Source: Octopus vulgaris | Lineage: Eukaryota | Reading direction: 5' to 3' | DNA length: 64,000 nucleotides | NCBI GenBank assembly: GCA_951406725.2 | Contig: OX597818.1 | Location: forward strand, 130,386,001-130,450,000 | Notes under the pieces: generated by a model | The model's database searches: none | What the model was told of the DNA's origin: nothing | The model's input: only the letters and a program-made list of their open reading frames with translations | Part shown: piece by piece, positions 294-32,983 of the stretch | Layout of the letters: each line of letters begins with the position of its first letter | How positions within the stretch are numbered: the first letter of the stretch is position 1 | Translations under genes and position numbers: made by a program

Positions 294-3200
294 TGAGCAA
301 TCAGTAGATAAACATAAATGATAAATAATATTAAATGTAATGATGGGAGAGGTAAAAAGAGTTTTTCTTTCATTTCTGTTTCTGTTGCTATACTTCTCAG
401 TGACTTGATGTTGTATTTTTTCTTTATCTTTTTCTTGTCCTTTCATAGACTTGATGTCAGTGGTAGCATCCTTCATAGCCTCGTGTGCCTGCAATACAAT
501 CACAACTTCCTCCACTTTACACTGCAACAACTCATGAGAGTCTATTAAAGGTAACAGCACAGCCTCTTCAAGCTCCAACAACATACCAGTGATCTTGCCA
601 GCCTTATCTGGATACATATTATGAATCAGTGGAAAGAGAGTCTCACCAAACACTTGTTTCTGTTCTTGTGGGGCAATTGCTCCTATCATACTGGAGCTAA
701 GCAGTTCTTGTCCTTCAGTAGTCTTGATGTCAGTGGTAGCATCTTTCATAGCCTCATGTGCCTGCAATACAATCACAACTTCCTCCACTTTACCCTGCAA
801 CAACTCATGAGAGTCTATTAAAGGTAACAGCACAGCCTCTTCAAGCTCCAACAACATACCAGTGATCTTGCCAGCCTTATCTGGATACATATTATGAATC
901 AATGGAAAGAGAGTCTCACCAAGCACTTGTTTCTGTTCTTGTGGGGCAATTGCTCCTATCATACTGGAGCCAAGCAGTTTTTGTCCTTTAATATTCTTGA
1001 TGTCAGTGGTAGCATCCGTCATAGCCTCGTGTGCCTGCAATACAATCACAACTTCCTCCACTTTTCCCTGCAACAACTCATGAGAGTCTATTAAAGGTAA
1101 CAGCTCAGCCTCTTCAAGCTCCAACAACATACCAGTGATCTTGCCAGCCTTATCTGGATACATATTATGAATCAATGGAAAGAGAGTCTCACCAAGCACT
1201 TGTTTCTGTTCTTGTGGGGCAATTGCTCCTATCATACTGGAGCTAAGCAGTTTTTGTCCTTTAATATTCTTGATGTCAGTGGTAGCATCCGTCATAGCCT
1301 CATGTGCCTGCAATACAATCACAACTTCCTCCAATTTTCCCTGCAACAACTCATGAGAGTCTATTAAAGGTAACAGCTCAGCCTCTTCAAGCTCCAACAA
1401 CATACCAGTGATCTTGCCAGCCTTATCTGGATACATATTATGAATCAATGGAAAGAGAGTCTCACCGAGCACTTGTTTCTGTTCTTGTGGGGCAATTGCT
1501 CCTATCATACTGGAGCTAAGCAGTTCTTGTCCTTCAGTAATCTTGATGTCAGTGGTAGCATCTTTCATAGCCTCATGTGCCTGCAATACAATCACAACTT
1601 CCTCCAATTTTCCCTGCAACAACTCATGAGAGTCTATTAAAGGTAATAGCTCAGCCTCTTCAAGCTCCAACAACATACCAGTGATCTTGCGAGCCTTATC
1701 TGGATACATATTATGAATCAATGGAAAGAGAGACTCACCAAGCACTTGTTTCTGTTCTTGTGGGGCAATTGCTCCTATCATACTGGAGCTAAGCAGTTCT
1801 TGTCCTTCAGTAGTCTTGATGTCAGTGGTAGCATCCTTCATAGCCTCATGTGCCTGCAATACAATCACAACTTCCTCCACTTTTCTCTGCAACAACTCAT
1901 GAGAGTCTATTAAAGGTAACAGCTCAGCCTCTTCAAGCTCCAACAACATACCAGTGATCTCACCAGCCTTATCTGGATACATATTATGAATCAATGGAAA
2001 GAGAGTCTCACCAAGCACTTGTTTCTGTTCTTGTGGGGCAATTGCTCCTATCATACTGGAGCTAAGCAGTTCTTGTCCTTCAGTAGTCTTGATGTCAGTG
2101 GTAGCATCCTTCATAGCCTCATGTGCCTGCAATACAATCACAACTTCTTCTACTTTTCCCTGCAACAACTCATGAGAGTCTATTAAAGGTAACAGCTCAG
2201 CCTCTTCAAGCTCCAACAACATACCAGTGATCTCACCAGCCTTATCTGGATACATACCATGAACCAATGGAAAGAGAGTCTCACCAAGCATTTGTTTCTG
2301 TTCTTGTGGGGCAATTGCTCCTATCATACTGGAGCTAAGAGGTTCTTGTCCTTTAATAGTCGTGATGTCAGTGGTAGCATCCTTCATAGCCTCATGTGCC
2401 TGCAATACAATCACAACTTCCTCCACTTTTCCCTGCAACAACTCATGAGAGTCTATTAAAGGTAATAGCTCAGCTTTGTCAAGCTCCAACAACATACCAG
2501 TGATTTTGCCAGCCTTATCTGGATACATATTATGAATCAATGGAAAGAGTGTCTCACCAAGCACTTGTTTCTGTTCTTGTGGGTCACTTGCTCCCATCAT
2601 ACTGGAGCTAAGAGGTTCTTGTCCTTCAGTAGTCTTGATGTCAGTGGTAGCATCTTTCATAGCCTCATGTGCCTGCAACACAATCACAACTTCCTCCACT
2701 TTTCCCTGCAACAACTCATGAGAGTCTATTAAAGGTAACAGCTCAGCCTCTTCAAGCTCCAACAACATACCAGTGATCTCACCAGCCTTATCTGGATACA
2801 TACCATGAATCAATGGAAAGAGAGTCTCACCAAGCACTTGTTTCTGTTCTTGTGGGGCAATTGCTCCTATCATACTGGAGCTAAGCAGTTTTTGTCCTTC
2901 AGTAGTCTTGATGTCAGTGGTAGCATTCTTCATAGCCTCATGTGCCTGCAACACAATCACAACTTCCTCCACTTTTCCCTGCAACAACTCATGAGAGTCT
3001 ATTAAAGGTAATAGCTCAGCCTCTTCAAGCTCCAACAACATACCAGTGATCTTGCTAGCCTTATCTGGATACATATTATGAATCAATGGAAAGAGAGTCT
3101 CACCAAGCACTTGTTTCTGTTCTTGTGGGGCAATTGCTCCTATCATACTGGAGCTAAGCAGTTTTTGTCCTTCAGTAGTCTTGATGTCAGTGGTAGCATT

Positions 3201-3605
3201 CTTCATAGCCTCATGTGCCTGCAACACAATCACAACTTCCTCCACTTTTCCCTGCAACAACTCATGAGAGTCTATTAAAGGTAATAGCTCAGCCTCTTCA
3301 AGCTCCAACAACATACCAGTGATCTTGCCAGCCTTATCTGGATACATATTATGAATCAATGGAAAGAGAGTCTCACCAAGCTTTTTTTTCTTTTCTTGAA
3401 GTGGTACTGCTGTTTTGATACTGGAGGAAAAATTATTGTTTTCATGGATGATCACCACTGCTTGCTGATTATTAGGTTGATCTAGCATCGACTGCATTGT
3501 ACCCATAGGTCTGAAAGGTCTTATTGATCCGAATTTAAAGTTAAATCTGGTATTCTCTGACTGCATTTTATTCATTTCTCTTGTGGTAAAAGGAGAGAAA
3601 GCCAT
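177..3605 (-). CDS. Poly-MLLE (PABC) protein, copy 1: 11 tandem MLLE domains, no RRMs, poly-Leu C-terminal tail
   Basis: 1142-aa intronless ORF. The 91-aa repeat contains [15 protein letters not shown]...[10 protein letters not shown]...[12 protein letters not shown], which matches the PABPC1 C-terminal MLLE domain ([15 protein letters not shown]...[10 protein letters not shown]...KVDEAVAVLQAH). DNA period is 273 bp (621, 894 ... 3351). Confidence 0.85.
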
Positions 3606-3893
3606 TGTTTGTCCTCTTTGTGCAGTGATGGGTCAAGAACCATGGTTGATGGAAACTGTACAATGAGATCCTGTTTGATTAGCTGGTCTCATCTACTGTG
3701 TGAGCAAAGGCTGGTACATAGTGTCCTGCTGGGTTGGGGTTGGCCTAACAGTTGTCCAGCAATGAGGACCCAAGGCCATAAACTGTATTAGCAGAGAGGA
3801 ATAGAATACTTTTCTTGAAACTTGGCTGGTATGAAGCAAAGGGTTAGGTTGCTGGCCTGGAAAATGGTATTGAATTAACTAAGTGGGCTTCTA
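3606..3893 (-). pseudogene. Decayed PABPC linker-coding sequence upstream of the ATG (also upstream of copies 2-4, partial in copy 5)
   Basis: Manual translation in the gene's frame gives QYHFPGQQPNP...RKVFYSS...GPHCWTTVRP...Q*MRP...[14 protein letters not shown], with stops at 3693-3695 and 3633-3635. EAHLVN precedes it after a 1-nt shift. These resemble the PABPC motifs AHLxNQY, PRW..VRP and GARPITGQ. Confidence 0.65.
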
Positions 3894-4178
3894 ATAATGT
3901 GTGTTCTCTTGAATATATTTCTAGATTATGTGGTATCAAGTAACCTACATGAGGAAATTTTAAGCAGAACAGTTGTCAGCAACAATCTAGGTGCTACTAC
4001 CAGTTATCAACACTGCAACAATTGTATCTGACACACATGTTTCCTAAGTCAGTCATAATAATAGAAGTAGTGATAACAATATTATCAGTAGTATTGAAGC
4101 GAATGACCACAATGATAATTCTAGTAGCACTCATACTGACAATAATGATAATAATCATATATGCAGGACCAGATTTAA

Positions 4179-4869
4179 CCCTTTCGTTACTATATTTCTG
4201 ACCAAAATACACCCCTCATGAGTTTCAATTAAATTCTAAAATAATCATGAATCTAGGCTTGTTTCATTAAATAACTGTAACTTTTTTACTTATCAACATT
4301 TTAATGTGATATTTGGAACACAATTAAAGAAAGGGTTCTTAATCAATTCTATTGCATAACTTTTGTCTCAAAGTGACTTTAATTACAGGTAAATCCAGGT
4401 AAATTGAGCAAAAGCTAAAAATATTAAAATTTTAAATTGAGCAAATCGTAAAAAATTAAATTTTGTTTAAACATCACTATAGAAAATGAATCATCAGCTA
4501 ATATTCAAATGGGTATGCAACAAAATTTTGATAAAGAAGAATTGTGCACATCACTATATCATCAGTTGAATTTAATCCACAACAGGTGTACCATAAAGGT
4601 GGAATAAAGTGAAATACTAGAATCCACCGTAAGTTTGACCGAACTAAAGAAATCGGTCAAAAAAATTATATACGGCCCTGGTTATGGTATGGAAGTAATA
4701 AATTCCAGACCACATCGTTCCCTAGGCCATGCTGACTAACATTTTCCCTGTATAAAAACTAAATCCACGCAGTACCCAGTAATTTGCTTGACAAATTTTC
4801 CGAAATTTGATCCCTGATTTTGTGCTTGTTTACGTTCTGCGTAAGTTTGTTTCTGCATTGATCGCTTCA
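4179..4869. mobile_element. Left part of a piggyBac-like MITE (copies at 13407-14098, 20413-21104, 28732-29422)
   Basis: TTAA (4175-4178) is followed by CCCTTTCGTTACTA. The reverse complement of this end occurs at 34427-34440. Confidence 0.75.
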
Positions 4870-5597: not shown

Positions 5598-5633
<36 letters not shown>

Positions 5634-7278: not shown

Positions 7279-10200
7279 TCAAACCTCGTGCGCCTGCAAC
7301 ACATTCAGAGCTTCCTCGGCTTTAGCCTGCAACAACTCATGAGAGTCTATTAAATGTAACAGCTCAGACGTGTCAAGCTCCAACAACATACCAGTGATCT
7401 TGCCAGCCTTATCTGGATACATATTATGAATCAATGGAAAGAGAGTCTCACCAAGCATTTGTTTCTGTTCTTGTGGGTCAATTGCTCCTATCATACTGGA
7501 GCTAAGAGGTTCTTTTCCTTTAATAGTCTTGATGTCAGTGATAGCATCTTTCATAGCCTCGTGCGCCTGCAACACATTCAGAGCTTTCTCGGCTTTAGCC
7601 TGCAACAACTCATGAGAGTCTATTAAATGTAACACCTCAGCCTCTTCAAGCTCCAACAACATACCAGTGATCTTGCGAGCCTTATCTGGATACATGTTAT
7701 GAATCAATGGAAAGAGAATCTCACCAAGCACTTGTTTCTGTTCTTGTGGGTCAATTGCTCCTATCATACTGGAGCTAAGAGGTTCTTTTCCTTTAATAGT
7801 CTTGATGTCAGTGATAGCATCTTTCATAGCCTCGTGCGCCTGCAACACATTCAGAGCTTCCTCGGCTTTAGCCTGCAACAACTCATGAGAGTCTATTAAA
7901 TGTAACAGCTCAGACGTGTCAAGCTCCAACAACATACCAGTGATCTTGCCAGCCTTATCTGGATACATATTATGAATCAATGGAAAGAGAGTCTCACCAA
8001 GCATTTGTTTCTGTTCTTGTGGGTCAATTGCTCCTATCATACTGGAGCTAAGAGGTTCTTTTCCTTTAATAGTCTTGATGTCAGTGATAGCATCTTTCAT
8101 AGCCTCGTGCGCCTGCAACACATTCAGAGCTTCCTCGGCTTTAGCCTGCAACAACTCATGAGAGTCTATTAAAAGTAACACCTCAGCCTCTTCAAGCTCC
8201 AACAACATACCAGTGATCTTGCGAGCCTTATCTGGATACATATTATGAATCAATGGAAAGAGAATCTCACCAAGCACTTGTTTCTGTTCTTGTGGGTCAA
8301 TTGCTCCTATCATACTGGAGCTAAGAGGTTCTTGTCCTTTAATAGTCTTGATGTCAGTGATAGCATCTTTCATAGCCTCGTGCGCCTGCAACACATTCAG
8401 AGCTTCCTCGGCTTTAGCCTGCAACAACTCATGAGAGTCTATTAAATGTAACAGCTCAGACGTGTCAAGCTCGAACAACATACCAGTGATCTTGCGAGCC
8501 TTATCTGGATACATGTTATGAATCAATGGAAAGAGAATCTCACCAAGCACTTGTTTCTGTTCTTGTGGGTCAATTGCTCCTATCATACTGGAGCTAAGAG
8601 GTTCTTGTCCTTTAATAGTCTTGATGTCAGTGGTAGCATTTTTCTTAGCCTCATGTGCCTGCAACACATTCACAGCTTCCTCGGCTTTAGCCTGCAACAA
8701 CTCATGAGAGTCTATTAAATGTAACACCTCAGCCTCTTCAAGCTCCAACAACATACCAGTGATCTTGCGAGCCTTATCTGGATACATATTATGAATCAAT
8801 GGAAAGAGAATCTCACCAAGCACTTGTTTCTGTTCTTGTGGGGGAATTGCTCCAAACATACTGGAGCTAAGCAGTTTTTGTCCTTTAATAGTCTTGATGT
8901 CAGCGGTAGCATCTTTCATAGCCTCATGTGCCTGCAATACAATCACAACTTCCTCCAATTTTCCCTGCAACAACTCATGAGAGTCTATTAAAGGTAACAG
9001 CTCAGCCTCTTCAAGCTCCAACAACATACCAGTGATTTTGCCAGCCTTATCTGGATACATATTATGAATCAATGGAAAGAGAGTCTCACCAAGCATTTGT
9101 TTCTGTTCTTCTGGGTCAATTGCTCCTATCATACTGGAGCTAAGAGGTTCTTTTCCTTTAATAGTCTTGATGTCAGTGATAGCATCTTTCATAGCCTCGT
9201 GCGCCTGCAACACATTCAGAGCTTCCTCGGCTTTAGCCTGCAACAACTCATGAGAGTCTATTAAATGTAACACCTCAGCCTCTTCAAGCTCCAACAACAT
9301 ACCAGTGATCTTGCGAGCCTTATCTGGATACATGTTATGAATCAATGGAAAGAGAATCTCACCAAGCACTTGTTTCTGTTCTTGTGGGTCAATTGCTCCT
9401 ATCATACTGGAGCTAAGAGGTTCTTGTCCTTTAATAGTCTTGATGTCAGTGATAGCATCTTTCATAGCCTCGTGCGCCTGCAACACATTCAGAGCTTCCT
9501 CGGCTTTAGCCTGCAACAACTCATGAGAGTCTATTAAATGTAACACCTCAGCCTCTTCAAGCTCCAACAACATACCAGTGATCTTGCGAGCCTTATCTGG
9601 ATACATATTATGAATCAATGGAAAGAGAATCTCACCAAGCACTTGTTTCTGTTCTTGTGGGTCAATTGCTCCTATCATACTGGAGCTAAGAGGTTCTTGT
9701 CCTTTAATAGTCTTGATGTCAGTGATAGCATCTTTCATAGCCTCGTGCGCCTGCAACACATTCAGAGCTTCCTCGGCTTTAGCCTGCAACAACTCATGAG
9801 AGTCTATTAAATGTAACAGCTCAGACGTGTCAAGCTCCAACAACATACCAGTGATCTTGCCAGCCTTATCTGGATACATATTATGAATCAATGGAAAGAG
9901 AGTCTCACCAAGCATTTGTTTCTGTTCTTGTGGGTCAATTGCTCCTATCATACTGGAGCTAAGAGGTTCTTTTCCTTTAATAGTCTTGATGTCAGTGATA
10001 GCATCTTTCATAGCCTCGTGCGCCTGCAACACATTCAGAGCTTCCTCGGCTTTAGCCTGCAACAACTCATGAGAGTCTATTAAAAGTAACACCTCAGCCT
10101 CTTCAAGCTCCAACAACATACCAGTGATCTTGCGAGCCTTATCTGGATACATATTATGAATCAATGGAAAGAGAATCTCACCAAGCACTTGTTTCTGTTC

Positions 10201-12833
10201 TTGTGGGTCAATTGCTCCTATCATACTGGAGCTAAGAGGTTCTTGTCCTTTAATAGTCTTGATGTCAGTGATAGCATCTTTCATAGCCTCGTGCGCCTGC
10301 AACAACTCATGAGAGTCTATTAAATGTAACAGCTCAGACGTGTCAAGCTCGAACAACATACCAGTGATCTTGCGAGCCTTATCTGGATACATGTTATGAA
10401 TCAATGGAAAGAGAATCTCACCAAGCACTTGTTTCTGTTCTTGTGGGTCAATTGCTCCTATCATACTGGAGCTAAGAGGTTCTTGTCCTTTAATAGTCTT
10501 GATGTCAGTGGTAGCATTTTTCTTAGCCTCATGTGCCTGCAACACATTCACAGCTTCCTCGGCTTTAGCCTGCAACAACTCATGAGAGTCTATTAAATGT
10601 AACACCTCAGCCTCTTCAAGCTCCAACAACATACCAGTGATCTTGCGAGCCTTATCTGGATACATATTATGAATCAATGGAAAGAGAATCTCACCAAGCA
10701 CTTGTTTCTGTTCTTGTGGGGGAATTGCTCCAATCATACTGGAGCTAAGCAGTTTTTGTCCTTTAATAGTCTTGATGTCAGCGGTAGCATCTTTCATAGC
10801 CTCATGTGCCTGCAATACAATCACAACTTCCTCCAATTTTCCCTGCAACAACTCATGAGAGTCTATTAAAGGTAACAGCTCAGCCTCTTCAAGCTCCAAC
10901 AACATACCAGTGATTTTGCCAGCCTTATCTGGATACATATTATGAATCAGTGGAAAGAGAGTCTCACCGAGCACTTGTTTCTGTTCTTGTGGGGCAATTG
11001 CTCCCATCATACTGGAGCTAAGAGCTTCTTGTCCTTCAGTAGTCTTGATGTCAGTGGTAGCATCCTTCATAGCCTCGTGTGCCTGCAACACAATCACAAC
11101 TTCCTCCACTTTTCCCTGCAACAACTCATGAGAGTCTATTAAAGGTAATAGCTCAGCCTCTTCAAGCTCCAACAACATACCAGTGATCTTGCCAGCCTTA
11201 TCTGGATACATATTATGAATCAATGGAAAGAGAATCTTACTAAGCACTTGTTTCTGTTCTTGTGGGGCAATTGCTCCTATCATACTGGAGCTAAGAGGTT
11301 CTTGTCCTTCAGTAGTCTTGATGTCAGTGGTAGCATCTTTCATAGCCTCTTGTGCCTGCAACACAATCACAACTTCCTCCAATTTTCCCTGCAACAACTC
11401 ATGAGAGTCTATTAAAGGTAATAGCTCAGCCTCTTCAAGCTCCAACAACATACCAGTGATCTTGCCAGCCTTATCTGGATACATATTATGAATCAATGGA
11501 AAGAGAATCTTACTAAGCACTTGTTTCTGTTCTTGTGGGTCACTTGCTCCTATCATACTGGAGCTAAGAGGTTCTTGTCCTTCAGTAGTCTTGATGTCAG
11601 TGGTAGCATCTTTCATAGCCTCTTGTGCCTGCAACACAATCACAACTTCCTCCAATTTTCCCTGCAACAACTCATGAGAGTCTATTAAAGGTAATAGCTC
11701 AGCCTCTTCAAGCTCCAACAACATACCAGTGATCTTGCCAGCCTTATCTGGATACATATTATGAATCAATGGAAAGAGAATCTTACTAAGCACTTGTTTC
11801 TGTTCTTGTGGGTCACTTGCTCCTATCATACTGGAGCTAAGAGGTTCTTGTCCTTCAGTAGTCTTGATGTCAGTGGTAGCATCTTTCATAGCCTCTTGTG
11901 CCTGCAACACAATCACAACTTCCTCCAATTTTCCCTGCAACAACTCATGAGAGTCTATTAAAGGTAATAGCTCAGCCTCTTCAAGCTCCAACAACATACC
12001 AGTGATCTTGCGAGCCTTATCTGGATACATATTATGAATCAATGGAAAGAAAATCTTACTAAGCACTTGTTTCTGTTCTTGTGGGGCAATTGCTCCTATC
12101 ATACTGGAGCTAAGAGGTTCTTGTCCTTCAGTAGTCTTGATGTCAGTGGTAGCATCTTTCATAGCCTCTTGTGCCTGCAACACAATCACAACTTCCTCCA
12201 ATTTTCCCTGCAACAACTCATGAGAGTCTATTAAAGGTAATAGCTCAGCCTCTTCAAGCTCCAACAACATACCAGTGATCTCACCAGCCTTATCTGGATA
12301 CATGTTATAAATCAATGGAAAGAGAGTCTCACCAAGCACTTGTTTCTGTTCTTGTGGGTCACTTGCTCCTATCATACTGGAGCTAAGAGGTTCTTTTCCT
12401 TTAATAGTCTTGATGTCAGTGATAGCATCTTTCATAGCCTCTTGTGCCTGCAACACAATCACAACTTCCTCCACTTTTCCCTGCAACAACTCATGAGAGT
12501 CTATTAAAGGTAATAGCTCAGCTTCGTCAAGCTCCAACAACATACCAGTGATCTTGCCAGCCTTATCTGGATACATACCATGAACCAATGGAAAGAGATT
12601 CTCACCAAGCTTTTTTTGTTTTCTTGAAGTGGTACTGCTGTTCTGATAGTGGAGGAAAAATTATTGTTTTCATGGATGATCACCACTGCTTGCTGATTAT
12701 TAGGTTGATCTAGCATCGACTGCATTGTACCCATAGGTCTGAAAGGTCTTATTGGTCCGAATTTAAAGTTAAATCTGGTATTCTCTGACTGCATTTTATT
12801 CATTTCTCTTGTGGTAAAAGGAGAGAAAGCCAT
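7279..12833 (-). CDS. Poly-MLLE protein, copy 2: 20 MLLE units; 1-nt frameshift at 12611-12617 (real or consensus error) and damaged 3' end
   Basis: ORF 12504..12833 carries the shared MAFSPF leader and ORF 7279..12588 carries the repeats. The T-run has 7 T here versus 8 T at the same site in copy 4. Confidence 0.72.
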
Positions 12834-19400: not shown

Positions 19401-19809
19401 GTCCTTCAGTAGTCTTGATGTCAGTGGTAGCATCTTTCATAGCCTCTTGTGCCTGCAACACAATCACACCTTCCTCCACTTTACCCTGCAACAACTCATG
19501 AGAGTCTATTAAAGGTAATAGCTCAGCCTCTTCAAGCTCCAACAACATACCAGTGATCTTGCCAGCCTTATCTGGATACATATTATGAATCAATGGAAAG
19601 AGAGTCTCACCAAGCTTTTTTTTCTTTTCTTGAAGTGGTACTGCTGTTTTGATACTGGAGGAAAAATTATTGTTTTCATGGATGATCACCACTGCTTGCT
19701 GATTATTAGGTTGATCTAGCATCGACTGCATTGTACCCATAGGTCTGAAAGGTCTTATTGATCCGAATTTAAAGTTAAATCTGGTATTCTCTGACTGCAT
19801 TTTATTCAT
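16402..19809 (-). CDS. Poly-MLLE protein, copy 3: 12 MLLE units
   Basis: ORF 16402..19839 starts with GTG because the paralogous ATG is mutated; the first in-frame ATG is at 19809 (MNKMQ). Ends [18 protein letters not shown]. Confidence 0.82.
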   Translation of the reverse strand: MNKMQSENTRFNFKFGSIRPFRPMGTMQSMLDQPNNQQAVVIIHENNNFSSSIKTAVPLQEKKKKLGETLFPLIHNMYPDKAGKITGMLLELEEAELLPLIDSHELLQGKVEEGVIVLQAQEAMKDATTDIKTTEGQELLSSSMIGAIAPQEQKQVLGETLFPLIHNMYPDKAGKIIGMLLELEEAELLPLIDSHELLQGKVEEVVIVLQAHEAMKDDTTDIKTIKGQKLLSSSMIGAIAPQEQKQVLGETLFPLIHNMYPDKAGKIIGMLLELEEAELLPLIDSHELLQGKLEEVVIVLQAQEAMKDATTDIKTTEGQELLSSSMIVAIAPQEQKQVLGETLFQFIHNMYPDKAGEITDMLLELDEAELLPLIDSHELLQGKVEEVVIVLQAQEAMKDAITDIKTIKGKEPLSSSMIGASDPQEQKQVLSKILFPLIHNMYPDKAGKITGMLLELDEAELLPLIDSHELLQGKMEEVVIVLQAHEAMKDATTDIKTTEGQEPLSSSMIGAIAPQEQKQVLGETLFPLIHNMYPDKAGKIIGMLLELEEAELLPLIDSDELLQGKVEEVVIVLQAHEAMKDATTDIKTIKGQKLLSSSMIGAIAPQEQKQVLGETLFPLIHNMYPDKAGKIIGMLLELEEAELLPLIDSHELLQGKLEEVVIVLQAQEAMKDATTDIKTTEGQELLSSSMIVAIAPQEQKQVLGETLFQFIHNMYPDKAGEITGMLLELDEAELLPLIDSHELLQGKVEEVVIVLQAQEAMKDAITDIKTIKGKEPLSSSMIGASDPQEQKQVLSKILFPLIHNMYPDKAGKITGMLLELDEAELLPLIDSHELLQGKMEEVVIVLQAHEAMKDATTDIKTTEGQEPLSSSMIGAIAPQEQKQVLGETLFPLIHNMYPDKAGEITGMLLELDEAELLPLKDSHELLQGKVEEVVIVLQAQEAMKDATTDIKTTEGQEPLSSSMIGAIDPQEQKQVLGETLFPLVHGIYPDKAGKITGMLLDLDKAELLPLIDSHKLLQAKVEEVVIVLQAHEAMKDATTDMKTTEGQKLLSSSMLAAVPPQVQKQMLGETLLPLVHAIYPYVAGKITGMLLELDKAELLPLIDSHELLQAKVEEAMVVLREYRVQEAATIKARGH

Positions 19810-21739
19810 ATCTCTTGTGGTAAGAGGAGAGAATGCCACTGTTTGTCCTCTTTGTGCAGTGATTGGTCAAGAACCATGGTTGATGGAAACTGTACAATGA
19901 GATCCTGTTTGATTAGCTGGTCTCATCTACTGTGTGAGCAAATGCTGGTACATAGTGTCCTGCTGGGTTGAGGTTGGCCTAACAGTTGTCCAGCAATGAG
20001 GACCCAAGGCTCTAAACTGTATTAGCAGAGAGGAATAGAATACTTTTCTTGAAACTTGGCTGGTATGAAGCAAAGGGTTAGGTTGCTGGCCTGGAAGATG
20101 GTATTGAATTAACTAAGTGGGCTTCTAATAATGTGTGTTCTCTTGAATATATCTCTAGATTATGTGGTATCAAGTAACCTACATGAGGAAATTTTAAGCA
20201 GAACATTTGTCAGCAACAATCTAGGTGCTACTACCAGTTATCAACACTGCAACAATGGTATCTGACACACATGTTTCATAAGTGAGTCATAATAATAGAA
20301 GTAGTGATAACAATATTATCAGTAGTATTCAAGCGAATGACCACAATGATAATTCTAGTTGCACTCATACTGACAATAATGATAATAATCATATATGCAG
20401 GACCAGATTTAACTCTTTCGTTACTATATTTCTGACCAAAATACACCCCTCATGAGTTTCAATTAAATTCTAAAATAATCATGAATCTAGGCTTGTTTCA
20501 TTAAATAACTGTAACTTTTTTACTTATCAACATATTAATGTGATATTTGGAACATAATTAAAGAAAGGGTTCTTTATCAATTCTATTGCATAACTTTTGT
20601 CTCAAAGTGACTTTAATTACAAGTAAATCCAGGTAAATTGAGCAAAAGGTAAAAATATTAAAATTTTTAATTGAGCAAATGGTAAAAAATTAAAATTTTG
20701 TTTAAACATCACTATAGAAAATGAATCATCAGCTAATATTCAAATGGGTATGCAACAAAATTTTGATAAAGAAGAATTGTGCACACCACAATATCATCAG
20801 TTGAATTTAATCCACAACAGGTGTACCATAAAGGTGGAATAAAGTGAAATACTAGAATCCACCGTAAGTTTGACCGAACTAAAGAAATCGGTCAAAAAAA
20901 TAATATACGGCCCTGGTTATGGTATGGAAGTAATAAATTCCAGACCACATCGTTCCCTAGGCCATGCTGACTAACATTTTCCCTGTATAAAAACTAAATC
21001 CACGCAGTACCCAGTAATTTGCTTGACAAATTTTCCGAAATTTGATCCCTGATTTTCTGTTTGTTTACGTTCTGCGTAAGTTTGTTTCTGCATTGATCGC
21101 TTCATTTTGGTCCCACTGTTGTAAAGAACGTTTTTATTATTGTACAGAATCCACTTTACAGAATTGATTTAGAGATCATATTTAAAATACAAAAAGGTGT
21201 TCCTTATCGAATTGGGACATTTCATCTAAAGTTCATCCGATTTGTTAATAATTTTACTTGAACATTTAAAAAGTTTCAATTATTCCATGCAGCAGAGGTT
21301 ACACAATTATCAGTTGTTAAAGTAAGGCTTAGCATGTTTCACAATACTCCAGGTAATATGGAAGACAACATTATTATCCTTTAACTCCCAGATTTTTGCA
21401 GCAAGTGAAGTAGTTTTAACCTTATTCCTTCTTTTAAAGGTGTGAGTGTTGTTATGTGATCTCAGTTTGAAGGGGAAGGAGGTAGAACCTATACAGGTTA
21501 AAGTATTCTGGTTAGTGTAAATCATACATTTGTAAATAATACTTTTAGCTAGGCCCCTATTATTAAGAGGGCACTAAAATTTATTTCTACAATTACATAG
21601 TTTTGATGGCAGAGTAGTAGGGCTATTACAAGTACAAGTAATTGGGTTATTATGTTGCAGATAGTTAGCATCACTAGAATTACTATTGTTGTTAAGCCTA
21701 CCAATTCTACAAGCACCATTGAATAAATATAACTATTAT

Positions 21740-24426
21740 AATAATAATAATAATAATTGTGTACAGTGCTCAGGTGCACTACAACTCATCTAAAGTGTAT
21801 ATATAATCAGGTGTAGTTTCGGCGGATTTCGGAAAGCATGAGGGCCTTAAAAGATGCAGTGTCATGGCAGTCAACAACTGACGCAGGCAGTTTATTCCAT
21901 GCTTCAGCAACTCTGAGCGTGAAAAAATGTTTCCGAAAGTCATGGGAGCTGTATTGTTTTCTGACTTTGTAGGCATGTCCACGTGTGTTAGACACATGGA
22001 GATCAAAAAGGTGTTCAGTGTTGTTGTTGGTGAGGTGGTTGATAACTTTGTGGGTGTTTACCAAGTCCGTCGCCAAACGCCGGAGCTTCAGTGAATCCAT
22101 GCCCAGGGAAACAAGGCGCTCAGAATATGGTAGGTGTCTGATGGAGGGTATGCGTTTGGTTGCACGTCTCTGGACAGATTCCAGGAGGTCAATGTTCTGT
22201 GCAAGATAGGGGTTCCAAACTGATGATGCGAATTCCAAGTGTGGTCGTACCATAGCTGTATACAGTTTTAAATAGATGGCTGGAGAGCGGCTAACAAAAG
22301 ACCTGCTGAGTGATGCCAAGACACCCTCGGCCTTCCTGACAATCTTAGAGATATGCTTTGACCAACGCAAATCACTGCTGACAGTGATGCCTAGGTCACG
22401 CTCACAAGAGGATTTCTTGATATCAGTGTTGTGGAGGGAGTATGTGAACGCAGGGTTTTTTCTCCCAAAATGCATGGTGGTACACTTGTCCACAGCCAGT
22501 TTCAGTTGCCAGTCTGTGATCCATTGCTGCATTGTGTCTAGGTCTGATTGCAGGAAAGAGTTGTAGACATCAGGATCTGTCCTCTTGATTTCAAGGTACA
22601 GCTTGATGTCGTCTGCATATTTCAATACTGTGGCATTCCTTAAATTGGCATCTATGTCGTTAATGTATGCCACAAACAAGAGGGGACCAAGGACAGATCC
22701 CTGTGGTACACCCGATGACATCTCATATGGTGTAGAGTGCTGTCCTAGAACTGTGACTACCTCCTTTCGGCTGAGGATGAAGGATTTCAACCAGTTAAAA
22801 AGGTCATCCCCCACACCCATTGCAGAGAGTTTCACCATAAGCCTTTTGTGTGGCACAGAGTTGAAAGCCTTAGCAAAGTCAAGGTAGACAACATCCACCC
22901 ATGAGCCACTGTCAGTAATCTGAGTAATGTCCTCAAGGAACTCGACAAGCTGGTCACTGCAGCTGGAGTTAGGGACAAATCCATATTGTGAGGGTCGGAT
23001 GAGACTGTGAGAGCTCCAGAAGTTCCAGAGTGTTTCTCTGACACACGATTCCATCAGTTTTGCAATACAGCTAGTGAGACTGACTGGGCGATAGTTGACA
23101 GGTGATGTGCGGTCGCCCTTTTTGAACAGAGGAATGACACTGGCAGTTTTCCACTGCTCCGGAGTAGCACCATTGTTGAGACAGTACTGGAAGAAAATAG
23201 AAAGCTGGTGTAAAAGGAAGTGCCTGCCACGTTTGAGAAGCAGGTATGTAACTCCATCGAGACCAGAGGAGGCATAGTTGCGCTTATTTTGAAGGTGACG
23301 TCGCAGCATTGCAGGTGTAAATTCCATAGTTGTTATGGAGTTTGCTGTTAGTGATGGTGAAGATGGTACATTTTGACTTTCAACAGTGAATATGTTTGCA
23401 TAGCACTCGGCAATGAGTTCTGCGCATTCCTTGGGGTCGTCAGTGATCTGGTTTGTGTGAGGGTTGCGAAGAGGGCCCACTGGAGAGTGAGGTCTCTGCT
23501 TTGAGTGCACATATTTCCAGAAAACCTTGCTGTCAGGATTGGCTGCTATGCACTGTTCAAATTCAAGCACTGCTTTTTTTGTCACTTGCTTGAGATGGTT
23601 GGAGGATTTATTCCGCTTCTTCCTGTTGGTGTCTGATTTATGCAACCTGTATTCCCGTTCAGCAGTCCGACGTTCCCTCCTGGCAAGTCGGACCGCTGAA
23701 GTTTCCCAAATTGCCCTTTTGGGGCGGTTCTTCTTTTTTTGTTTACGTGGCACTGATGCTGCACATGCTGCCCATATTGAGTCCAGGATACTCTGGAGTA
23801 TAGTATTCACATCTCCAGAGTTGTAGAATTCACGCCAGTTTGGGTGCTGTAGTTCAGTGTGGTACAGGTTCCAATCTGCTCTCTTCCAATCGAAGGAAGC
23901 AGATTGGAGATGGTTCAGGTTTTTGTTGCCCGCAAGAGCCAGATTGGCGATGATCATAGCATGATCAGAGTCACCTAGAGGTTCCTCCGTAGTGCAATTG
24001 ATAACTGCTTCAGGAGTTGTGGTGAAGAGCAGGTCCAAGGTGTTGTCGCCTCTTGTTGGAGAGGTGACTACTTGTGACCAGTTTGAGTCCAGCACAAGCT
24101 CAACAAAATCGTTTGCACTCTGTGGCCAATGGAAGGTCTCCCAATCGATCTCAGGATGGTTGAAATCGCCTGCAATAAACACATAAGTGGCTGTTTTCCT
24201 GGCAGCAGCTCGGAGGACATTGCAAAGCTGTGTGTCCCGATGGTAACTTGGGGGACGATAAACAACGCCAAGCAGGAGTGTTGACATGGTCATACGCACG
24301 TCACAGAAAAAAACTTCTTCTTGTGATTCGTTCAAATCGGCACAAGGAATTACCAAAAAATTTGAACGAACGTAGACCATCACACCACCACCACGGCGGT
24401 TAGTGCGGTCCTTACGGAAGAGGTCC
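21740..24426 (-). mobile_element. 5'-truncated CR1-like LINE inserted in spacer 3
   Basis: Absent from the other three spacers. Has a (TTA)n 3' tail and a candidate TTAT duplication at 21736-21739 and 24427-24430. Confidence 0.92.
21807..24425 (-). CDS. LINE ORF2 (partial AP endonuclease plus reverse transcriptase), lacking its true start
   Basis: Motifs LFRKDR..RRGGGV, GDFN, SDH, YRPVSLTS, YLDFAKAF, GVPQGSVLGPLLF and YADD. The frame is open up to the truncation point. Confidence 0.9.
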   Translation of the reverse strand, partial: DLFRKDRTNRRGGGVMVYVRSNFLVIPCADLNESQEEVFFCDVRMTMSTLLLGVVYRPPSYHRDTQLCNVLRAAARKTATYVFIAGDFNHPEIDWETFHWPQSANDFVELVLDSNWSQVVTSPTRGDNTLDLLFTTTPEAVINCTTEEPLGDSDHAMIIANLALAGNKNLNHLQSASFDWKRADWNLYHTELQHPNWREFYNSGDVNTILQSILDSIWAACAASVPRKQKKKNRPKRAIWETSAVRLARRERRTAEREYRLHKSDTNRKKRNKSSNHLKQVTKKAVLEFEQCIAANPDSKVFWKYVHSKQRPHSPVGPLRNPHTNQITDDPKECAELIAECYANIFTVESQNVPSSPSLTANSITTMEFTPAMLRRHLQNKRNYASSGLDGVTYLLLKRGRHFLLHQLSIFFQYCLNNGATPEQWKTASVIPLFKKGDRTSPVNYRPVSLTSCIAKLMESCVRETLWNFWSSHSLIRPSQYGFVPNSSCSDQLVEFLEDITQITDSGSWVDVVYLDFAKAFNSVPHKRLMVKLSAMGVGDDLFNWLKSFILSRKEVVTVLGQHSTPYEMSSGVPQGSVLGPLLFVAYINDIDANLRNATVLKYADDIKLYLEIKRTDPDVYNSFLQSDLDTMQQWITDWQLKLAVDKCTTMHFGRKNPAFTYSLHNTDIKKSSCERDLGITVSSDLRWSKHISKIVRKAEGVLASLSRSFVSRSPAIYLKLYTAMVRPHLEFASSVWNPYLAQNIDLLESVQRRATKRIPSIRHLPYSERLVSLGMDSLKLRRLATDLVNTHKVINHLTNNNTEHLFDLHVSNTRGHAYKVRKQYSSHDFRKHFFTLRVAEAWNKLPASVVDCHDTASFKALMLSEIRRNYT

Positions 24427-26085: not shown

Positions 26086-28158
26086 TTAATGACCCCTACC
26101 TTTGATGGTAGCAGCTTCTTGACCCCGATATTCCCACAATACAATCATAGCTTCCTCGACTTTAGCCTGCAACAACTCATGAGAGTCTATCAAAGGTAAC
26201 AGCTCAGCTTTGTCAAGCTCCAACAACATACCTGTGATCTTGCCAGCCACGTATGGATAGATAGCATGAACCAATGGTAAAAGAGTCTCACCAAGCATTT
26301 GTTTCTGTACTTGTGGTGGTACTGCTGCTAACATACTGGAGCTAAGCAGTTCTTGTCTATGATTGGTCTTGATGTCAGTGGTAGCATTTTTCTTAGCCTC
26401 ATGTGCCTGCAACACAATCACAGCTTCCTCCACTTTAGCCTGCAGCGACTCATGAGAGTCTAATGAAATTAACAGCTCAGCCTCTTCAAGCTCCAACAAC
26501 ATACCAGTGATCTTGCCAGCCTTATCTGGATACATGTTATAAATCAATGAAAAGAGAATCTCACCAAGCACTTGTTTCTGTTCTTGTGGGTCAATTGTTC
26601 CTATTGTACTGGAACTAAGAGGTTCTTTTCCTTTAATAGTCTTGATGTCAGTGATAGCATCTTTCATAGCCTCTTGTGCCTGCAACACAATCACAACTTC
26701 CTCCAATTTTCCCTGCAACAACTCATGAGAGTCTATTAAAGGTAATAGCTCAGCCTCTTCAAGCTCCAACAACATACCAGTGATCTTGCCAGCCTTATCT
26801 GGATACATATTATGAATCAATGGAAAGAGAATCTTACTAAGCACTTGTTTCTGTTCTTGTGGGTCACTTGCTCCTATCATACTGGAGCTAAGAGGTTCTT
26901 GTCCTTCAGTAGTCTTGATGTCAGTGGTAGCATCTTTCATAGCCTCTTGTGCCTGCAACACAATCACAACTTCCTCCAATTTTCCCTGCAACAACTCATG
27001 AGAGTCTATTAAAGGTAATAGCTCAGCCTCTTCAAGCTCCAACAACATACCAGTGATCTTGCCAGCCTTATCTGGATACATATTATGAATCAATGGAAAG
27101 AGAATCTTACTAAGCACTTGTTTCTGTTCTTGTGGGTCACTTGCTCCTATCATACTGGAGCTAAGAGGTTCTTGTCCTTCAGTAGTCTTGATGTCAGTGG
27201 TAGCATCTTTCATAGCCTCTTGTGCCTGCAACACAATCACAACTTCCTCCAATTTTCCCTGCAACAACTCATGAGAGTCTATTAAAGGTAATAGCTCAGC
27301 CTCTTCAAGCTCCAACAACATACCAGTGATCTTGCGAGCCTTATCTGGATACATATTATGAATCAATGGAAAGAGAATCTTACTAAGCACTTGTTTCTGT
27401 TCTTGTGGGGCAATTGCTCCTATCATACTGGAGCTAAGAGGTTCTTGTCCTTCAGTAGTCTTGATGTCAGTGGTAGCATCCTTCATAGCCTCATGTGCCT
27501 GCAACACAATCACAACTTCCTCCACTTTTCCCTGCAACAACTCATGAGAGTCTATTAAAGGTAACAGCTCAGCTTCGTCAAGCTCCAACAACATACCAGT
27601 GATCTCACCAGCCTTATCTGGATACATGTTATGAATCAATGGAAAGAGAGTCTCACCAAGCACTTGTTTCTGTTCTTGTGGGTCACTTGCTCCTATCATA
27701 CTGGAGCTAAGAGGTTCTTTTCCTTTAATAGTCTTGATGTCAGTGATAGCATCTTTCATAGCCTCTTGTGCCTGCAACACAATCACAACTTCCTCCACTT
27801 TTCCCTGCAACAACTCATGAGAGTCTATTAAAGGTAATAGCTCAGCTTCGTCAAGCTCCAACAACATACCAGTGATCTTGCCAGCCTTATCTGGATACAT
27901 ACCATGAACCAATGGAAAGAGATTCTCACCAAGCTTTTTTTTGTTTTCTTGAAGTGGTACTGCTGTTCTGATAGTGGAGGAAAAATTATTGTTTTCATGG
28001 ATGATCACCACTGCTTGCTGATTATTAGGTTGATCTAGCATCGACTGCATTGTACCCATAGGTCTGAAAGGTCTTATTGGTCCGAATTTAAAGTTAAATC
28101 TGGTATTCTCTGACTGCATTTTATTCATTTCTCTTGTGGTAAAAGGAGAGAAAGCCAT
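26086..28158 (-). CDS. Poly-MLLE protein, copy 4: 7 MLLE units
   Basis: Intact 690-aa ORF from ATG to TAA, with KITGMLLE repeated every 91 aa. Confidence 0.85.
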   Translation of the reverse strand: MAFSPFTTREMNKMQSENTRFNFKFGPIRPFRPMGTMQSMLDQPNNQQAVVIIHENNNFSSTIRTAVPLQENKKKLGENLFPLVHGMYPDKAGKITGMLLELDEAELLPLIDSHELLQGKVEEVVIVLQAQEAMKDAITDIKTIKGKEPLSSSMIGASDPQEQKQVLGETLFPLIHNMYPDKAGEITGMLLELDEAELLPLIDSHELLQGKVEEVVIVLQAHEAMKDATTDIKTTEGQEPLSSSMIGAIAPQEQKQVLSKILFPLIHNMYPDKARKITGMLLELEEAELLPLIDSHELLQGKLEEVVIVLQAQEAMKDATTDIKTTEGQEPLSSSMIGASDPQEQKQVLSKILFPLIHNMYPDKAGKITGMLLELEEAELLPLIDSHELLQGKLEEVVIVLQAQEAMKDATTDIKTTEGQEPLSSSMIGASDPQEQKQVLSKILFPLIHNMYPDKAGKITGMLLELEEAELLPLIDSHELLQGKLEEVVIVLQAQEAMKDAITDIKTIKGKEPLSSSTIGTIDPQEQKQVLGEILFSLIYNMYPDKAGKITGMLLELEEAELLISLDSHESLQAKVEEAVIVLQAHEAKKNATTDIKTNHRQELLSSSMLAAVPPQVQKQMLGETLLPLVHAIYPYVAGKITGMLLELDKAELLPLIDSHELLQAKVEEAMIVLWEYRGQEAATIKGRGH

Positions 28159-30150
28159 TGTTTGTCCTCTTTGTGCAGTGATGGGTCAAGAACCATGGTT
28201 GATGGAAACTGTACAATGAGATCCTGTTTAATTAGCTGGTCTCATCTACTGTGTGAGCAAAGGCTGGTACATAGTATCCTGCTGGGTTGAGGTTGGCCTA
28301 AAAGTTGTTCAGCAATGAGGCCCCAAGGCCCGAAACTGTATTAGCAGAGAGGATTAGAATACTTTTCTTGAAACTTGGCTGGTATGAAGCAAAGGGTTAG
28401 GTTGCTGGCCTGGAAGATGGTATTGAATTAACTAAGTGGGCTTCTAATAATGTGTGTTCTCTTGAATATATCTCTAGATTATGTGGTATCAAGTAACCTA
28501 CATGAGGAAATTTTAAGCAGAACAGTTGTCAGCAACAATCTAGGTGCTACTACCAGTTATCAACACTGCAACAATGGTATCTGACACACATGTTTCATAA
28601 GTCAGTCATAATAATAGAAGTAGTGATAACAATATTATCAGTAGTATTCAAGCGAATGACCACAATGATAATTCTAGTAGCACCCATACTGACAATAATG
28701 ATAATAATCATATATGCAGGACCAGATTTAACCCTTTCGTTACTATATTTCTGACCAAAATACACCCCTCATGAGTTTCAATTAAATTCTAAAATAATCA
28801 TGAATCTAGGCTTGTTTCATTAAATAACTGTAACTTTTTTACTTATCAACATTTTAATGTGATATTTGGAACATAATTAAAGAAAGGGTTCTTAATCAAT
28901 TCTATTGCATAACTTTTGTCTCAAAGTGATTTTAATTATAGGTAAATCCAGGTAAATTGAGCAAAAGGTAAAAATATTAAAATTTTAAATTGAGCAAATC
29001 GTAAAAATTAAAATTTTGTTTAAACATCACCATAGAAAATGAATCATCAGCTAATATTCAAATGGGTATGCAACAAAATGTTGATAAAGAAGAATTGTGC
29101 ATATCACTATATCATCAGTTGAATTTAATCCACAACAGGTGTACCATAAAGGTGGAATAAAGTGAAATACTAGAATCCACCGTAAGTTTGACCGAACTAA
29201 AGAAATTGGTCAAAAAAATAATATACGGCCCTGGTTATGGTATGGAAGTGATAAATTCCAGACCACATCGTTCCCTAGGACATGCTGACTAACATTTTCC
29301 CTGTATAAAAACTAAATCCACGCAGTACCCAGTAATTTACTTGACAAATTTTCCGAAATTTGATCCCTGATTTTGTGCTTGTTTACGTTCTGCGTAAGTT
29401 TGTTTCTGCATTGATCGCTTCATTTTGGTCCCACTGTTGTAAAGAACGTTTTTATTATTGTACAGAATCCACTTTACAGAATTGATTTAGAGATCATATT
29501 TAAAATACAAAAAGGTGTTCCTTATGGAATTGGAACATTTCATCTAAAGTTCATCCGATTTGTTAATAATTTTACTTGAACATTTAAAAAGTTTCAATTA
29601 TTCCATGCAGCAGAGGTTACACAATTATCAGTTGTTAAAGTAAGGCTTAGCATGTTTCACAATACTCCAGGTAATATGGAAGACAACATTATTATCCTTT
29701 AACTCCCAGATTTTTGCAGCAAGTGAAGTAGTTTTAACCTTATTCCTTCTTTTAAAGGTGTGAGTGTTGTTATGTGATCTCAGTTTGAAGGGGAAGGAGG
29801 TAGAACCTATACAGGTTAAAGTATTCTGGTTAGTGTAAATCATACATTTGTAAATAATACTTTTAGCTAGGCCCCTATTATTAAGAGGGCACTAAAATTT
29901 ATTTCTACAATTACATAGTTTTGATGGCAGAGTAGTAGGGCTATTACAAGTACAGGTAATTGGGTTATTATGTTGCAGATAGTTAGCATCACTAGAATTA
30001 CTATTGTTGTTAAGCCTACCAATTCTACAAGCACCATTGAATAAATATAACTGTTATCATTAGTATAGTTGCTGTAATTGTTATTATTTATATAAGAATC
30101 ACTGTGGTCACTATCAATAGTATTACCATCAGCATTACAAATATGAGCAC

Positions 30151-30198
<48 letters not shown>

Positions 30199-31499
30199 CA
30201 TTATTATCATTATTATTATTAGTGGTATTGGAGCTAATAAAATGTCATTGTTGTCTTTTGCATGAATACTATTGATAATATTGTTACCAGTACATCAGTA
30301 TAATTAGTATAAAATTAAACTTTCAATTTCAGGTTCAATACAACTATACTTATTAAGAGGAAAATATTTTTGTGAAATACTAAAAATTTTCTTGGCAAGT
30401 TGCATAACAAAATTGTAGCCATCATGTTACTACTACTACATCATCATCATCATCATTTAAGGTCTGTTTTCCATGCAGGTGTGGGATGGACATTTTGACC
30501 AGGTCTAGCAAGCTGATGGGCTGCACCAGGCTCCAGTCTGATTTGGCATGTTTTCTATGGCTGATTCCCTTCCTAATACCAACCACTCTGAGATTGTAAC
30601 GGGTGCTTTTACGTGCAACTGACATGGGTGCCAGTCACCTGATACCAGTATCTGCCATGACAATGATTTCCCTTTGCTTGATGGGTCTTCTTCTCAAGCA
30701 CCGTATATTGCTAAAGGTCTCAGTCATTTGTCATTGCCCCCATGAAGCCCAGCACTCGAAAGGTGCTTTTTACACACCACCTGCACAGGTGCCAGTTATG
30801 TGACACCAGCATAAAACTACCTAAAATACAGAGTAGATAAAACTCCAGAAAGTGATAAGTGCAGAATCTGTGGACAAAATGGTGAAACCTTATGCATATT
30901 ACCAGCCAATATAAGCCATTAGTCTCAGAAGAATATAAGAGATGCCATGACAATATAGTAAGGCTTGTCCATTGGACACTTTGCAACAAGTATGGACTTG
31001 ACAGAGAAAAAAATTAGTATGTCCACAATCCCGAAGGCATCATCGAAAATGATAATGCAAAGATCCTGTGGGATTTTATGATTCAGTGCAACCAAGAGAT
31101 AGAGAATAGGAAGCCAGACATAAAAGCAAACTATGCTGGATCATAGATATAGCATGCCTAGCTGACAACAAGGTATGCAATAAGGAAGAAAGAAAAGTCA
31201 ATAGATATGACGGGTTAGCTTGGGAGTTAAAGCAATTGTGATCAATGAAAAAGCTGGTAGTGGTAACAATAATTGTCGGAGCCCTGGGAACAGCGAGTAA
31301 AAACCTTGAAAAGTACATGGAACAAATAGGGGCTGCAATAAGGGTGGACCACTTTCAGAAAACAGCACTGCTTGGAACCGCTCATATACTCTGGAAGGTG
31401 CTCGAAAAATAAGAGGTGTCACCCTAGTCCACTGGTAGTGAACAGCTGACACCATAGTACATCTCCAGCATTAAGAGCTGTGCAAAGGCAATAATAATA

Positions 31500-31534
<35 letters not shown>

Positions 31535-31729
31535 CAATAACAATAATAATGATAAAAGTAACAATGAGCAATCAGTAGATAAACATAAATGATAAATAAT
31601 ATTAAATGTAATGATGGGAGAGGTAAAAAGAGTTTTTGTTTCATTTCTTTTTCTGTTGCTATACTTCTCTGTGACTTGATGTTGTATTTTTTCTTTATCT
31701 TTTTCTTGATTTGTTCTCTTCAGTCTTTC

Positions 31730-32983
31730 TTAATGACCCCTAGCTTTGATGGTAGCAGCTTCTTGACCCCGATATTCCCACAATACAATCATAGCTTCCT
31801 CGACTTTAGCCTGCAACAACTCATGAGAGTCTATCAAAGGTAACAGCTCAGCTTTGTCAAGCTCCAACAACATACCTGTGATCTTGCCAGCCACGTATGG
31901 ATAGATAGCATGAACCAATGGTAAAAGAGTCTCACCAAGCATTTGTTTCTGTACTTGTGGTGGTACTGCTGCTAACATACTGGAGCTAAGCAGTTCTTGT
32001 CTATGATTGGTCTTGATGTCAGTGGTAGCATTTTTCTTAGCCTCATGTGCCTGCAACACAATCACAGCTTCCTCCACTTTAGCCTGCAGCGACTCATGAG
32101 AGTCTAATGAAATTAACAGCTCAGCCTCTTCAAGCTCCAACAACATACCAGTGATCTTGCCAGCCTTATCTGGATACATGTTATAAATCAATGAAAAGAG
32201 AATCTCACCAAGCACTTGTTTCTGTTCTTGTGGGTCAATTGTTCCTATTGTACTGGAACTAAGAGGTTCTTTTCCTTTAATAGTCTTGATGTCAGTGATA
32301 GCATCTTTCATAGCCTCTTGTGCCTGCAATACAATCACAACTTCCTCCACTTTTCCCTGCAACAACTTATGAGAGTCTATTAAAGGTAACAGCTCAGCTT
32401 CGTCAAGCTCCAACAACATACCAGTGATCTCGCCAGCCTTATCTGGATACATGTTATGAATCAATGGAAAGAGAGTCTCACCAAGCACTTGTTTCTGTTC
32501 ATGTGGGTCAATTGCTCCTATCATACTGGAGCTAAGAGGTTCTTTTCCTTTAATAGTCTTGATGTCAGTGATAGCATCTTTCATAGCCTCTTGTGCCTGC
32601 AACACAATCACAACTTCCTCCACTTTTCCCTGCAACAACTCATGAGAGTCTATTAAAGGTAACAGCTCAGCTTCGTCAAGCTCCAACAACATACCAGTGA
32701 TCTTGCCAGCCTTATCTGGATACATATTATGAACCAATGGAAAGAGAGTCTCACCAAGCTTTTTTTTCTTTCCTTGAAGTGGTACTGCTGTTCTGATAGT
32801 GGAGGAAAATTTATTGTTTTCATGGATGATCACCACTGCTTGCTGATTATTAGGTTGATCTAGCATCGACTGCATTGTACCCATAGGTCTGAAAGGTCTT
32901 ATTGGTCCGAATTTAAAGTTAAATCTGGTATTCTCTGACTGCATTTTATTCATTTCTCTTGTGGTAAAAAGAGAGAAAGCCAT
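31730..32983 (-). CDS. Poly-MLLE protein, copy 5: 4 MLLE units
   Basis: Intact 417-aa ORF. Its last two units are nearly identical to those of copy 4. Confidence 0.82.

What the first reader, a model, noticed from the sequence alone, without database searches (positions are those of the whole stretch)
480..32760. Unit-to-unit substitutions fall on the PAM2-binding surface
Seen, using human PABPC1 numbering from my manual alignment: G563-E564 to SK (LSKILF; copies 2-4), K580 to E (AGEITG; all copies), G579 to R or S, T582 to I (copy 3), G583 to D, L586 to F (MLFE; twice in copy 2), E587 to D, and F567 to L (terminal units). Known: E564, F567 and the G579-KITGMLLE-E587 segment line the PAM2 groove. 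Inference: each protein is a mosaic of canonical and charge-reversed domains, implying graded affinity, new ligands, or relaxed constraint.
Basis: partly seen in the sequence, partly recalled or inferred. Interest (0 to 1): 0.72.

Follow-up and report, generated by a model that had tools for sequence, protein, structure and literature searches.

The report
Octopus poly-MLLE array, groove not targeted

Summary
The listed substitutions are real: 54 MLLE units in five minus-strand genes, and the numbering matches published contacts. The headline claim meets its own refutation criterion. Codon omega is 0.45-0.61 in the groove and 0.70-0.81 outside. Each recurrent variant uses one codon, consistent with a single event spread by unit and block duplication. 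The array derives from this genome's PABPC on C23 and has orthologues in O. sinensis and O. bimaculoides. It is kept open: 0 nonsense among 125 alleles against 6.3 expected, while the upstream PABP remnant has decayed. Best reading: a likely translated, RRM-less multivalent PAM2 binder whose redundant units drift; variant units likely bind weakly or not at all. One residual, post hoc signal: four charge-changing variants at the Phe sub-pocket are common (P 0.001-0.09). I found no description in print. The scan's index already lists this same stretch (e1-8666990); no matching note on other DNA was among the 8 shown.

The parts
31730..32983 (-). Copy 5 poly-MLLE ORF, 417 aa, 4 units, PABP-linker-derived leader
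26086..28158 (-). Copy 4 poly-MLLE ORF, 690 aa, 7 units
16402..19809 (-). Copy 3 poly-MLLE ORF, 1135 aa from the first ATG (the homologous start at 19839 is GTG), 12 units; units 2-5 repeated as 6-9
7279..12833 (-). Copy 2, 20 units. Leader (ATG 12833) is out of frame by one base in an A-run near 12610; 1765 aa from an internal Met at 12576; terminal unit largely deleted and frameshifted; units 7-11 recur as 14-18
177..3605 (-). Copy 1 ORF, 1142 aa, 11 units; terminal unit and normal stop deleted, reads through into former 3' UTR
28159..28463 (-). Decayed remnant of PABP residues 384-483 upstream of copy 4 (5 stops, 1 frameshift). Equivalents at 19840-20144 and 3606-3910 (3 stops, 1 frameshift each) and 12834-13138; shortened at 32984-33100
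   Evidence: tblastn
31490..31729 (-). Sequence homologous to DNA just downstream of the parent PABPC stop (likely 3' UTR; alignment 72% identical)
   Evidence: blastn of L024
32429..32431 (-). Example K580E codon (GAG), copy 5 unit 2; same codon in 9 of 9 carriers
27379..27384 (-). Example G563S-E564K codons (AGT AAG), copy 4 unit 3; always together, 9 of 9
10645..10647 (-). Example G579R codon (CGC), copy 2 unit 8; same codon in 12 of 12, on two unit backgrounds
21740..24426 (-). LINE (endonuclease + reverse transcriptase, open frame) inserted in the spacer between copies 4 and 3; passenger

Best explanation
These are five tandem genes made from the tail of the octopus's own poly(A)-binding protein gene, in which the MLLE domain was multiplied 4-20 times, and the groove changes are no more frequent than changes elsewhere, likely because redundant units can drift. 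Steps. (1) Shown: the segment from about PABP residue 384 to beyond the stop was duplicated; its 5' part decayed, and a 273-bp MLLE unit and then the whole gene were amplified. (2) Shown: variants spread by unit, block and gene duplication with recombination. (3) Inferred from the lack of nonsense alleles: the product is translated and kept full-length. (4) Inferred: it likely works as an RRM-less multivalent binder of PAM2-motif proteins, competing with or clustering PABP's partners, with selection on the total of working units rather than on each one. (5) Predicted: K580E, G579R, G563S/E564K and T582I units fold but bind PAM2 weakly or not at all.
For: No enrichment. Omega 0.454 at 18 contacts (differs from 1, p=0.024) vs 0.814 elsewhere (p=0.36); whole domain 0.675 (p=0.037). 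One codon per variant, and K580E rides with a neighbouring GGT synonym in 8 of 9. Identical or near-identical units within and between copies; 117 of 351 site pairs fail the four-gamete test. 0 nonsense among 125 derived alleles vs 6.27 expected (P=0.002), no internal frameshift and one in-frame 33-nt deletion, against 3-5 stops plus a frameshift in the adjacent 100-codon remnant. Units form a clade (100/96) sister to the octopus PABPC MLLE, apart from other animals' arrays. The majority state differs from the parent at 0 of 12 reader sites vs 14 of 46 others (p=0.028); O. bimaculoides units differ at 1 of 12 vs 21 of 45 (p=0.019): groove changes arise but do not fix. M584, L585, K606, V613, L614 are invariant. 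Literature: G579 is conserved because peptide and domain backbones approach closely, and polar contacts are to the backbone (PMC2854688); F567A/K580A/L585A cannot bind PAM2 proteins (PMC11347130); Rrm4 MLLE1/2, with Ser/Arg at the Gly equivalent to G563, do not bind (bioRxiv 2021.10.25.465676; equivalence from the Q733-G736-F740 spacing). Independent MLLE arrays in starfish, coral and sponge proteins also pick up groove changes.
Against: Frequency-weighted charge changes at the 8-residue Phe sub-pocket: 35 occurrences vs 9.3 (P=0.001); P=0.009, 0.022, 0.038 and 0.090 under four stricter nulls. This rests on four events and was picked post hoc from 40 statistics. K580E and SK are shared with O. 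sinensis. Groove and non-groove N:S ratios do not differ significantly (p=0.57), so power is low both ways. Recombination weakens tree-based omega. Copies 1 and 2 are damaged at their ends. Binding and expression were not measured.
Confidence: 0.6

Rival explanations
1. Selection favours altered Phe sub-pockets (E564K, G579R, K580E, Q560K) to tune affinity, change partner choice or escape an antagonist, while the Leu pocket is kept.
For: Frequent charge changes cluster at the Phe sub-pocket; the Leu pocket is depleted (4 variants vs 9.4, P<= 0.013); G579 was hit three separate ways (R, S here; D in O. bimaculoides); K580E and SK are shared with O. sinensis. Rrm4 MLLE2 does not bind PAM2 yet has an accessory role.
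Against: Event counts at the pocket are at background (9 vs 8.3); omega below 1; four non-independent events; post hoc. The asymmetry is also expected if ligand-only surface sites are freed while Leu-pocket residues also serve the fold (inference). No variant PAM2 family was seen (4 hits, canonical; a lower bound).
Confidence: 0.14
2. The protein is kept for a role that needs folded helical beads but little PAM2 binding (scaffold, self-association, another surface), and the groove is slowly being lost.
Against: The groove is the more conserved part against the parent and in O. bimaculoides; no other conserved surface stands out (non-contact omega 0.81).
Confidence: 0.14
3. The cluster is a functionless or dying PABP-derived repeat whose homogenisation hides decay.
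For: High omega; copy 2 leader frameshift and truncation; copy 1 lost its terminal unit; copy 3 lost the first ATG.
Against: 0 of 125 nonsense alleles (P=0.002); breaks occur only at array ends; the adjacent remnant decayed; an open three-unit orthologue exists in O. bimaculoides.
Confidence: 0.1
4. Variants or unit numbers are assembly artefacts.
For: Identical units occur (8 identical pairs); the copy 2 frameshift lies in a homopolymer, and contigs of three public runs show the in-frame length.
Against: K580E, SK and F567L occur in O. sinensis protein records; variants use single codons on consistent backgrounds.
Confidence: 0.02

Closest known systems
MLLE (PABC) domain of cytoplasmic poly(A)-binding protein PABPC1 (PF00658; e.g. 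PDB 2rqg, 3ktp/3kus group)
   Same: Ungapped alignment, E 1.5e-23; majority unit keeps Q560, G563, E564, F567 and KITGMLLE; direct descent from this genome's PABPC.
   Different: No RRMs, 4-20 domains per chain, new inter-unit linker, high omega, I588L in all units and A610V in most.
Ustilago Rrm4 three-MLLE platform (bioRxiv 2021.10.25.465676; PMC11572963)
   Same: Several MLLE domains on flexible linkers, a mix of binding and non-binding domains; Ser at the G563-equivalent as in the SK units.
   Different: Rrm4 has RRMs and three anciently diverged, position-fixed domains; here units are about 93% identical in DNA, interchangeable, and vary in number.
UBR5/HYD MLLE
   Same: MLLE used outside PABP to engage PAM2 proteins.
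   Different: Single domain in a HECT ligase; the genome has a separate UBR5-like MLLE exon (L026, identity by resemblance).
Database-only multi-MLLE proteins of other invertebrates (Patiria P0005, Montipora P0010, Acropora P0014, Plakobranchus P0008, Mytilus P0011, Corticium P0016)
   Same: PABP-like MLLE multiplied 2-6 times with scattered groove changes.
   Different: Independent origins for those placed in the tree; often fused to RING/B-box, RRM or MIF4G; fewer units.
Concertedly evolving tandem-domain genes (e.g. polyubiquitin; recalled, not from a call)
   Same: Unit and block duplication with recombination; variable unit number.
   Different: Polyubiquitin units are under strict protein constraint and are cleaved apart; these are loosely constrained.

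Membership tests
MLLE domain (PF00658) | Profile match above curated cut-off | tested here: met
   54 of 59 genome matches lie in the window, all over cut-off
MLLE domain (PF00658) | Helical bundle fold | tested here: inconclusive
   Model of copy 5: helical domains, low-confidence linkers, mean pLDDT 63, pTM 0.30
MLLE domain (PF00658) | KITGMLLE signature and Phe-pocket residues intact | tested here: inconclusive
   Met in the majority state and in 17 of 54 units (12 with Q560); altered in 37 of 54
MLLE domain (PF00658) | Binds PAM2 peptides | not testable with these tools
   Needs ITC, SPR or pull-down
PABPC | Four N-terminal RRMs | tested here: not met
   No RRM by Pfam; tblastn finds only PABP residues 384 onward
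PABPC | Single C-terminal MLLE | tested here: not met
   4-20 units per gene
Rrm4-type multi-MLLE platform | RRMs plus three diverged, position-fixed MLLE domains | tested here: not met
Diversifying binding-repeat array (positive selection on the ligand face) | Excess variation or omega above 1 at contact sites | tested here: not met
   site-class models (M7/M8) not run
Retrocopy | Intron loss, poly(A) tail, target-site duplication | tested here: inconclusive
   5'-truncated and carries downstream parent sequence, but the parent CDS is itself one open frame; tail and target-site duplication not sought in detail

The most novel reading that the evidence does not exclude
Octopus has built an RNA-blind, 4- to 20-valent PAM2 decoy from its own PABP tail, and selection is retuning the Phe sub-pocket unit by unit (E564K, G579R, K580E) while keeping the Leu pocket, so each gene copy is a differently weighted titrator of deadenylation, termination and silencing factors; other invertebrates repeated the trick independently, some fusing the array to RING ligases.
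Probability: 0.12. Interest if true: 0.72.

Novelty: new variant of a known kind. Interest (0 to 1): 0.33.

Why it matters
The claim as posed is a selection effect, which is useful to know. What remains is an apparently undescribed RRM-less poly-MLLE gene family kept open across at least three Octopus species. If it binds PAM2 proteins it would be a natural dominant-negative or clustering agent for mRNA-tail regulators. The 54 near-identical units also form a ready allelic series for how MLLE contacts set PAM2 affinity.

Tried and rejected
Recurrent independent origin of variants: no support, one codon each. Expression: no RNA holder listed. Contigs of four runs guessed to be RNA cover the copy 5 ORF; two of them also cover the spacer at 29420-30211 and two do not; inconclusive and not used as evidence. 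Copy 2 frameshift: contigs of three runs show the in-frame length but collapse copies; unresolved. More copies to the left: none in 30 kb, only a spacer homologue. Variant PAM2 partners: 4 canonical hits among 32 candidates. Structure model too weak for unit packing or mutant effects; no fold search run. Complex prediction not run: a pass would follow from likeness to solved structures and would not resolve point changes. Leishmania KITGMFLE (PMC6379680) is the neighbouring position (585), so it is no precedent for L586F. Weak Pfam extras (DUF134, GGACT and others) have no stretch passing alone and are repeat-summed noise. Print searches without a description of the family; subscription papers are not covered.
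Full report
What is there. The minus strand of 177-32983 holds five related single-frame genes separated by a repeated spacer about 97.5% identical between copies. Each is a short leader plus 273-bp units encoding an MLLE domain and linker: 11, 20, 12, 7 and 4 units, 54 in all. A genome search for PF00658 gave 59 matches of 68 candidates, 54 in this window; 30 kb to the left holds no further unit. Protein records name the nearest hits as Octopus vulgaris, O. sinensis and O. bimaculoides.

Origin. The C23 PABPC (L024) matches the leader, the units and about 265 nt past its stop. PABP residues 384-483 survive upstream of each gene as a remnant with 3-5 stops and a frameshift (shortened in copy 5); no RRM is present. 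In a tree of 58 distinct domain sequences (the unit with the deletion and duplicates left out; few columns), octopus array units form one clade (100/96) sister to the octopus PABPC domain, apart from the Patiria, Plakobranchus and P0007 arrays. The O. bimaculoides protein has three units with the same new linker, so the array predates that split (tens of millions of years, recalled). Two unit classes, parent-like (copy 2 units 11, 18, 20) and derived, occur in both species.

Observation. Unit position + 540 equals human numbering (checked against PMC7356810, part 2 of 5 read). All listed substitutions are present: G563S+E564K 9, K580E 9, G579R 12, G579S 1, T582I 4, G583D 1, L586F 2, E587D 1, F567L 3. 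F567L is in the last units of three of five copies.

Test of the headline. Contacts were taken from PMC2854688 (passages): 18 residues. With Q560K counted, distinct variants are 10 vs 12.4 expected and 14 vs 18.6; radical variants at contacts are 3 vs 7.7 (P<= 0.026); units hit are 37 vs 35.1. Dropping five divergent last units changes nothing. The N:S difference between groove and rest is not significant (p=0.57).

Why it looked patterned. Each recurrent variant has one codon in all carriers, and K580E carries a linked synonymous change in 8 of 9. Copy 3 units 2-5 recur as 6-9, copy 2 units 7-11 as 14-18, and copy 2 units 3-5 match copy 4 units 3-4; 117 of 351 informative site pairs show recombination.

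Result against this reading. Four stricter nulls give P=0.009-0.09 and 0.06-0.16. The Leu pocket is depleted (4 variants vs 9.4). This is one of 40 statistics, post hoc, and rests on four events; freeing of ligand-only surface sites would give the same asymmetry (inference). K580E and SK are shared with O. sinensis, and O. bimaculoides has G579D. Only 5 of 54 units keep all contacts apart from I588L.

Selection on the gene. Among 125 distinct derived alleles none is nonsense, against 6.27 expected from the observed change spectrum (P=0.002). The one internal indel is an in-frame 33-nt deletion; breaks lie only at array ends of copies 1 and 2, and the copy 2 leader shift is in a homopolymer where three runs show the in-frame length. 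The majority state differs from the parent at 0 of 12 reader sites vs 14 of 46 others (p=0.028; 2 of 18 vs 12 of 40 for contacts, p=0.19). O. bimaculoides differs at 1 of 12 vs 21 of 45 (p=0.019; 4 of 17 vs 18 of 40, p=0.15). Groove changes appear but do not fix.

Mechanism. Shown: origin, amplification, spread by duplication, no enrichment. Inferred: translation, and a role as an RRM-less multivalent PAM2 binder (the 'sponge or scaffold' wording matches scan note e1-8666990). Predicted: weakened binding of variant units. K580 and E564 bond to the PAM2 backbone and G579 permits backbone approach; F567A/K580A/L585A cannot bind (PMC11347130, passages); Rrm4 MLLE1 and MLLE2, with Ser or Arg at the Gly equivalent to G563, do not bind (bioRxiv 2021.10.25.465676, abstract and sections 6 and 12; equivalence from PMC11572963 passages). 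Excess PABPC1 suppresses miRNA silencing (PMC3018788, passages), which makes titration plausible but does not show it here. The genome encodes canonical PAM2 motifs. A model of copy 5 shows helical domains with uncertain linkers. Expression is untested in any firm way.

Novelty. Searches (listings only, except the papers named) found no description of octopus or animal poly-MLLE proteins; the only multi-MLLE precedent was Rrm4. Supplements were not read. Similar arrays exist as database records in several invertebrates. Verdict: observation partly confirmed, interpretation partly supported (relaxed constraint only), new variant of a known kind, interest 0.33.

Noticed in passing
L028:3239-4264 (+), G000 C2: A separate 342-aa open frame with one Pfam MLLE stretch (E 2e-14) and by eye two more degenerate MLLE-like repeats that have lost the KITGMLLE motif: possibly an older, independent multi-MLLE gene.
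   Followed up: partly
P0005, P0010, P0014, P0022, P0027: RING (and B-box) domains fused to 2-6 MLLE units in Patiria, Montipora and Acropora records: candidate ubiquitin ligases for PAM2 proteins, analogous to UBR5. Gene models unverified.
   Followed up: partly
P0011, P0013, P0023 (Mytilus): PABP-like proteins with an N-terminal MIF4G domain and extra MLLE domains.
   Followed up: partly
L024 and L025 (G000 C23, C10): Two PABPC genes, each a single open frame; the C10 one (661 aa) is more divergent.
   Followed up: partly
window 21740-24426: LINE with open endonuclease-RT frame inserted in the spacer between copies 4 and 3, with a (TAA)n-type tail at the low end; absent from the other spacers.
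   Followed up: partly
window 7279-10761 (copy 2 units 8-20): A parent-like unit class (A605, A610, H595) dominates the second half of copy 2 and is also present in O. bimaculoides; two old unit classes coexist.
   Followed up: partly
L027:3166-3465 (-), G000 C21: Divergent single MLLE exon (E 2.5e-8) of an unidentified gene.
   Followed up: no
window 38400-41700: Broken LTR-retrotransposon-like gag/pol fragments on the + strand (by eye).
   Followed up: no
window 48508-49082: 66/133-bp tandem repeat, about 8 copies of 66 bp.
   Followed up: no
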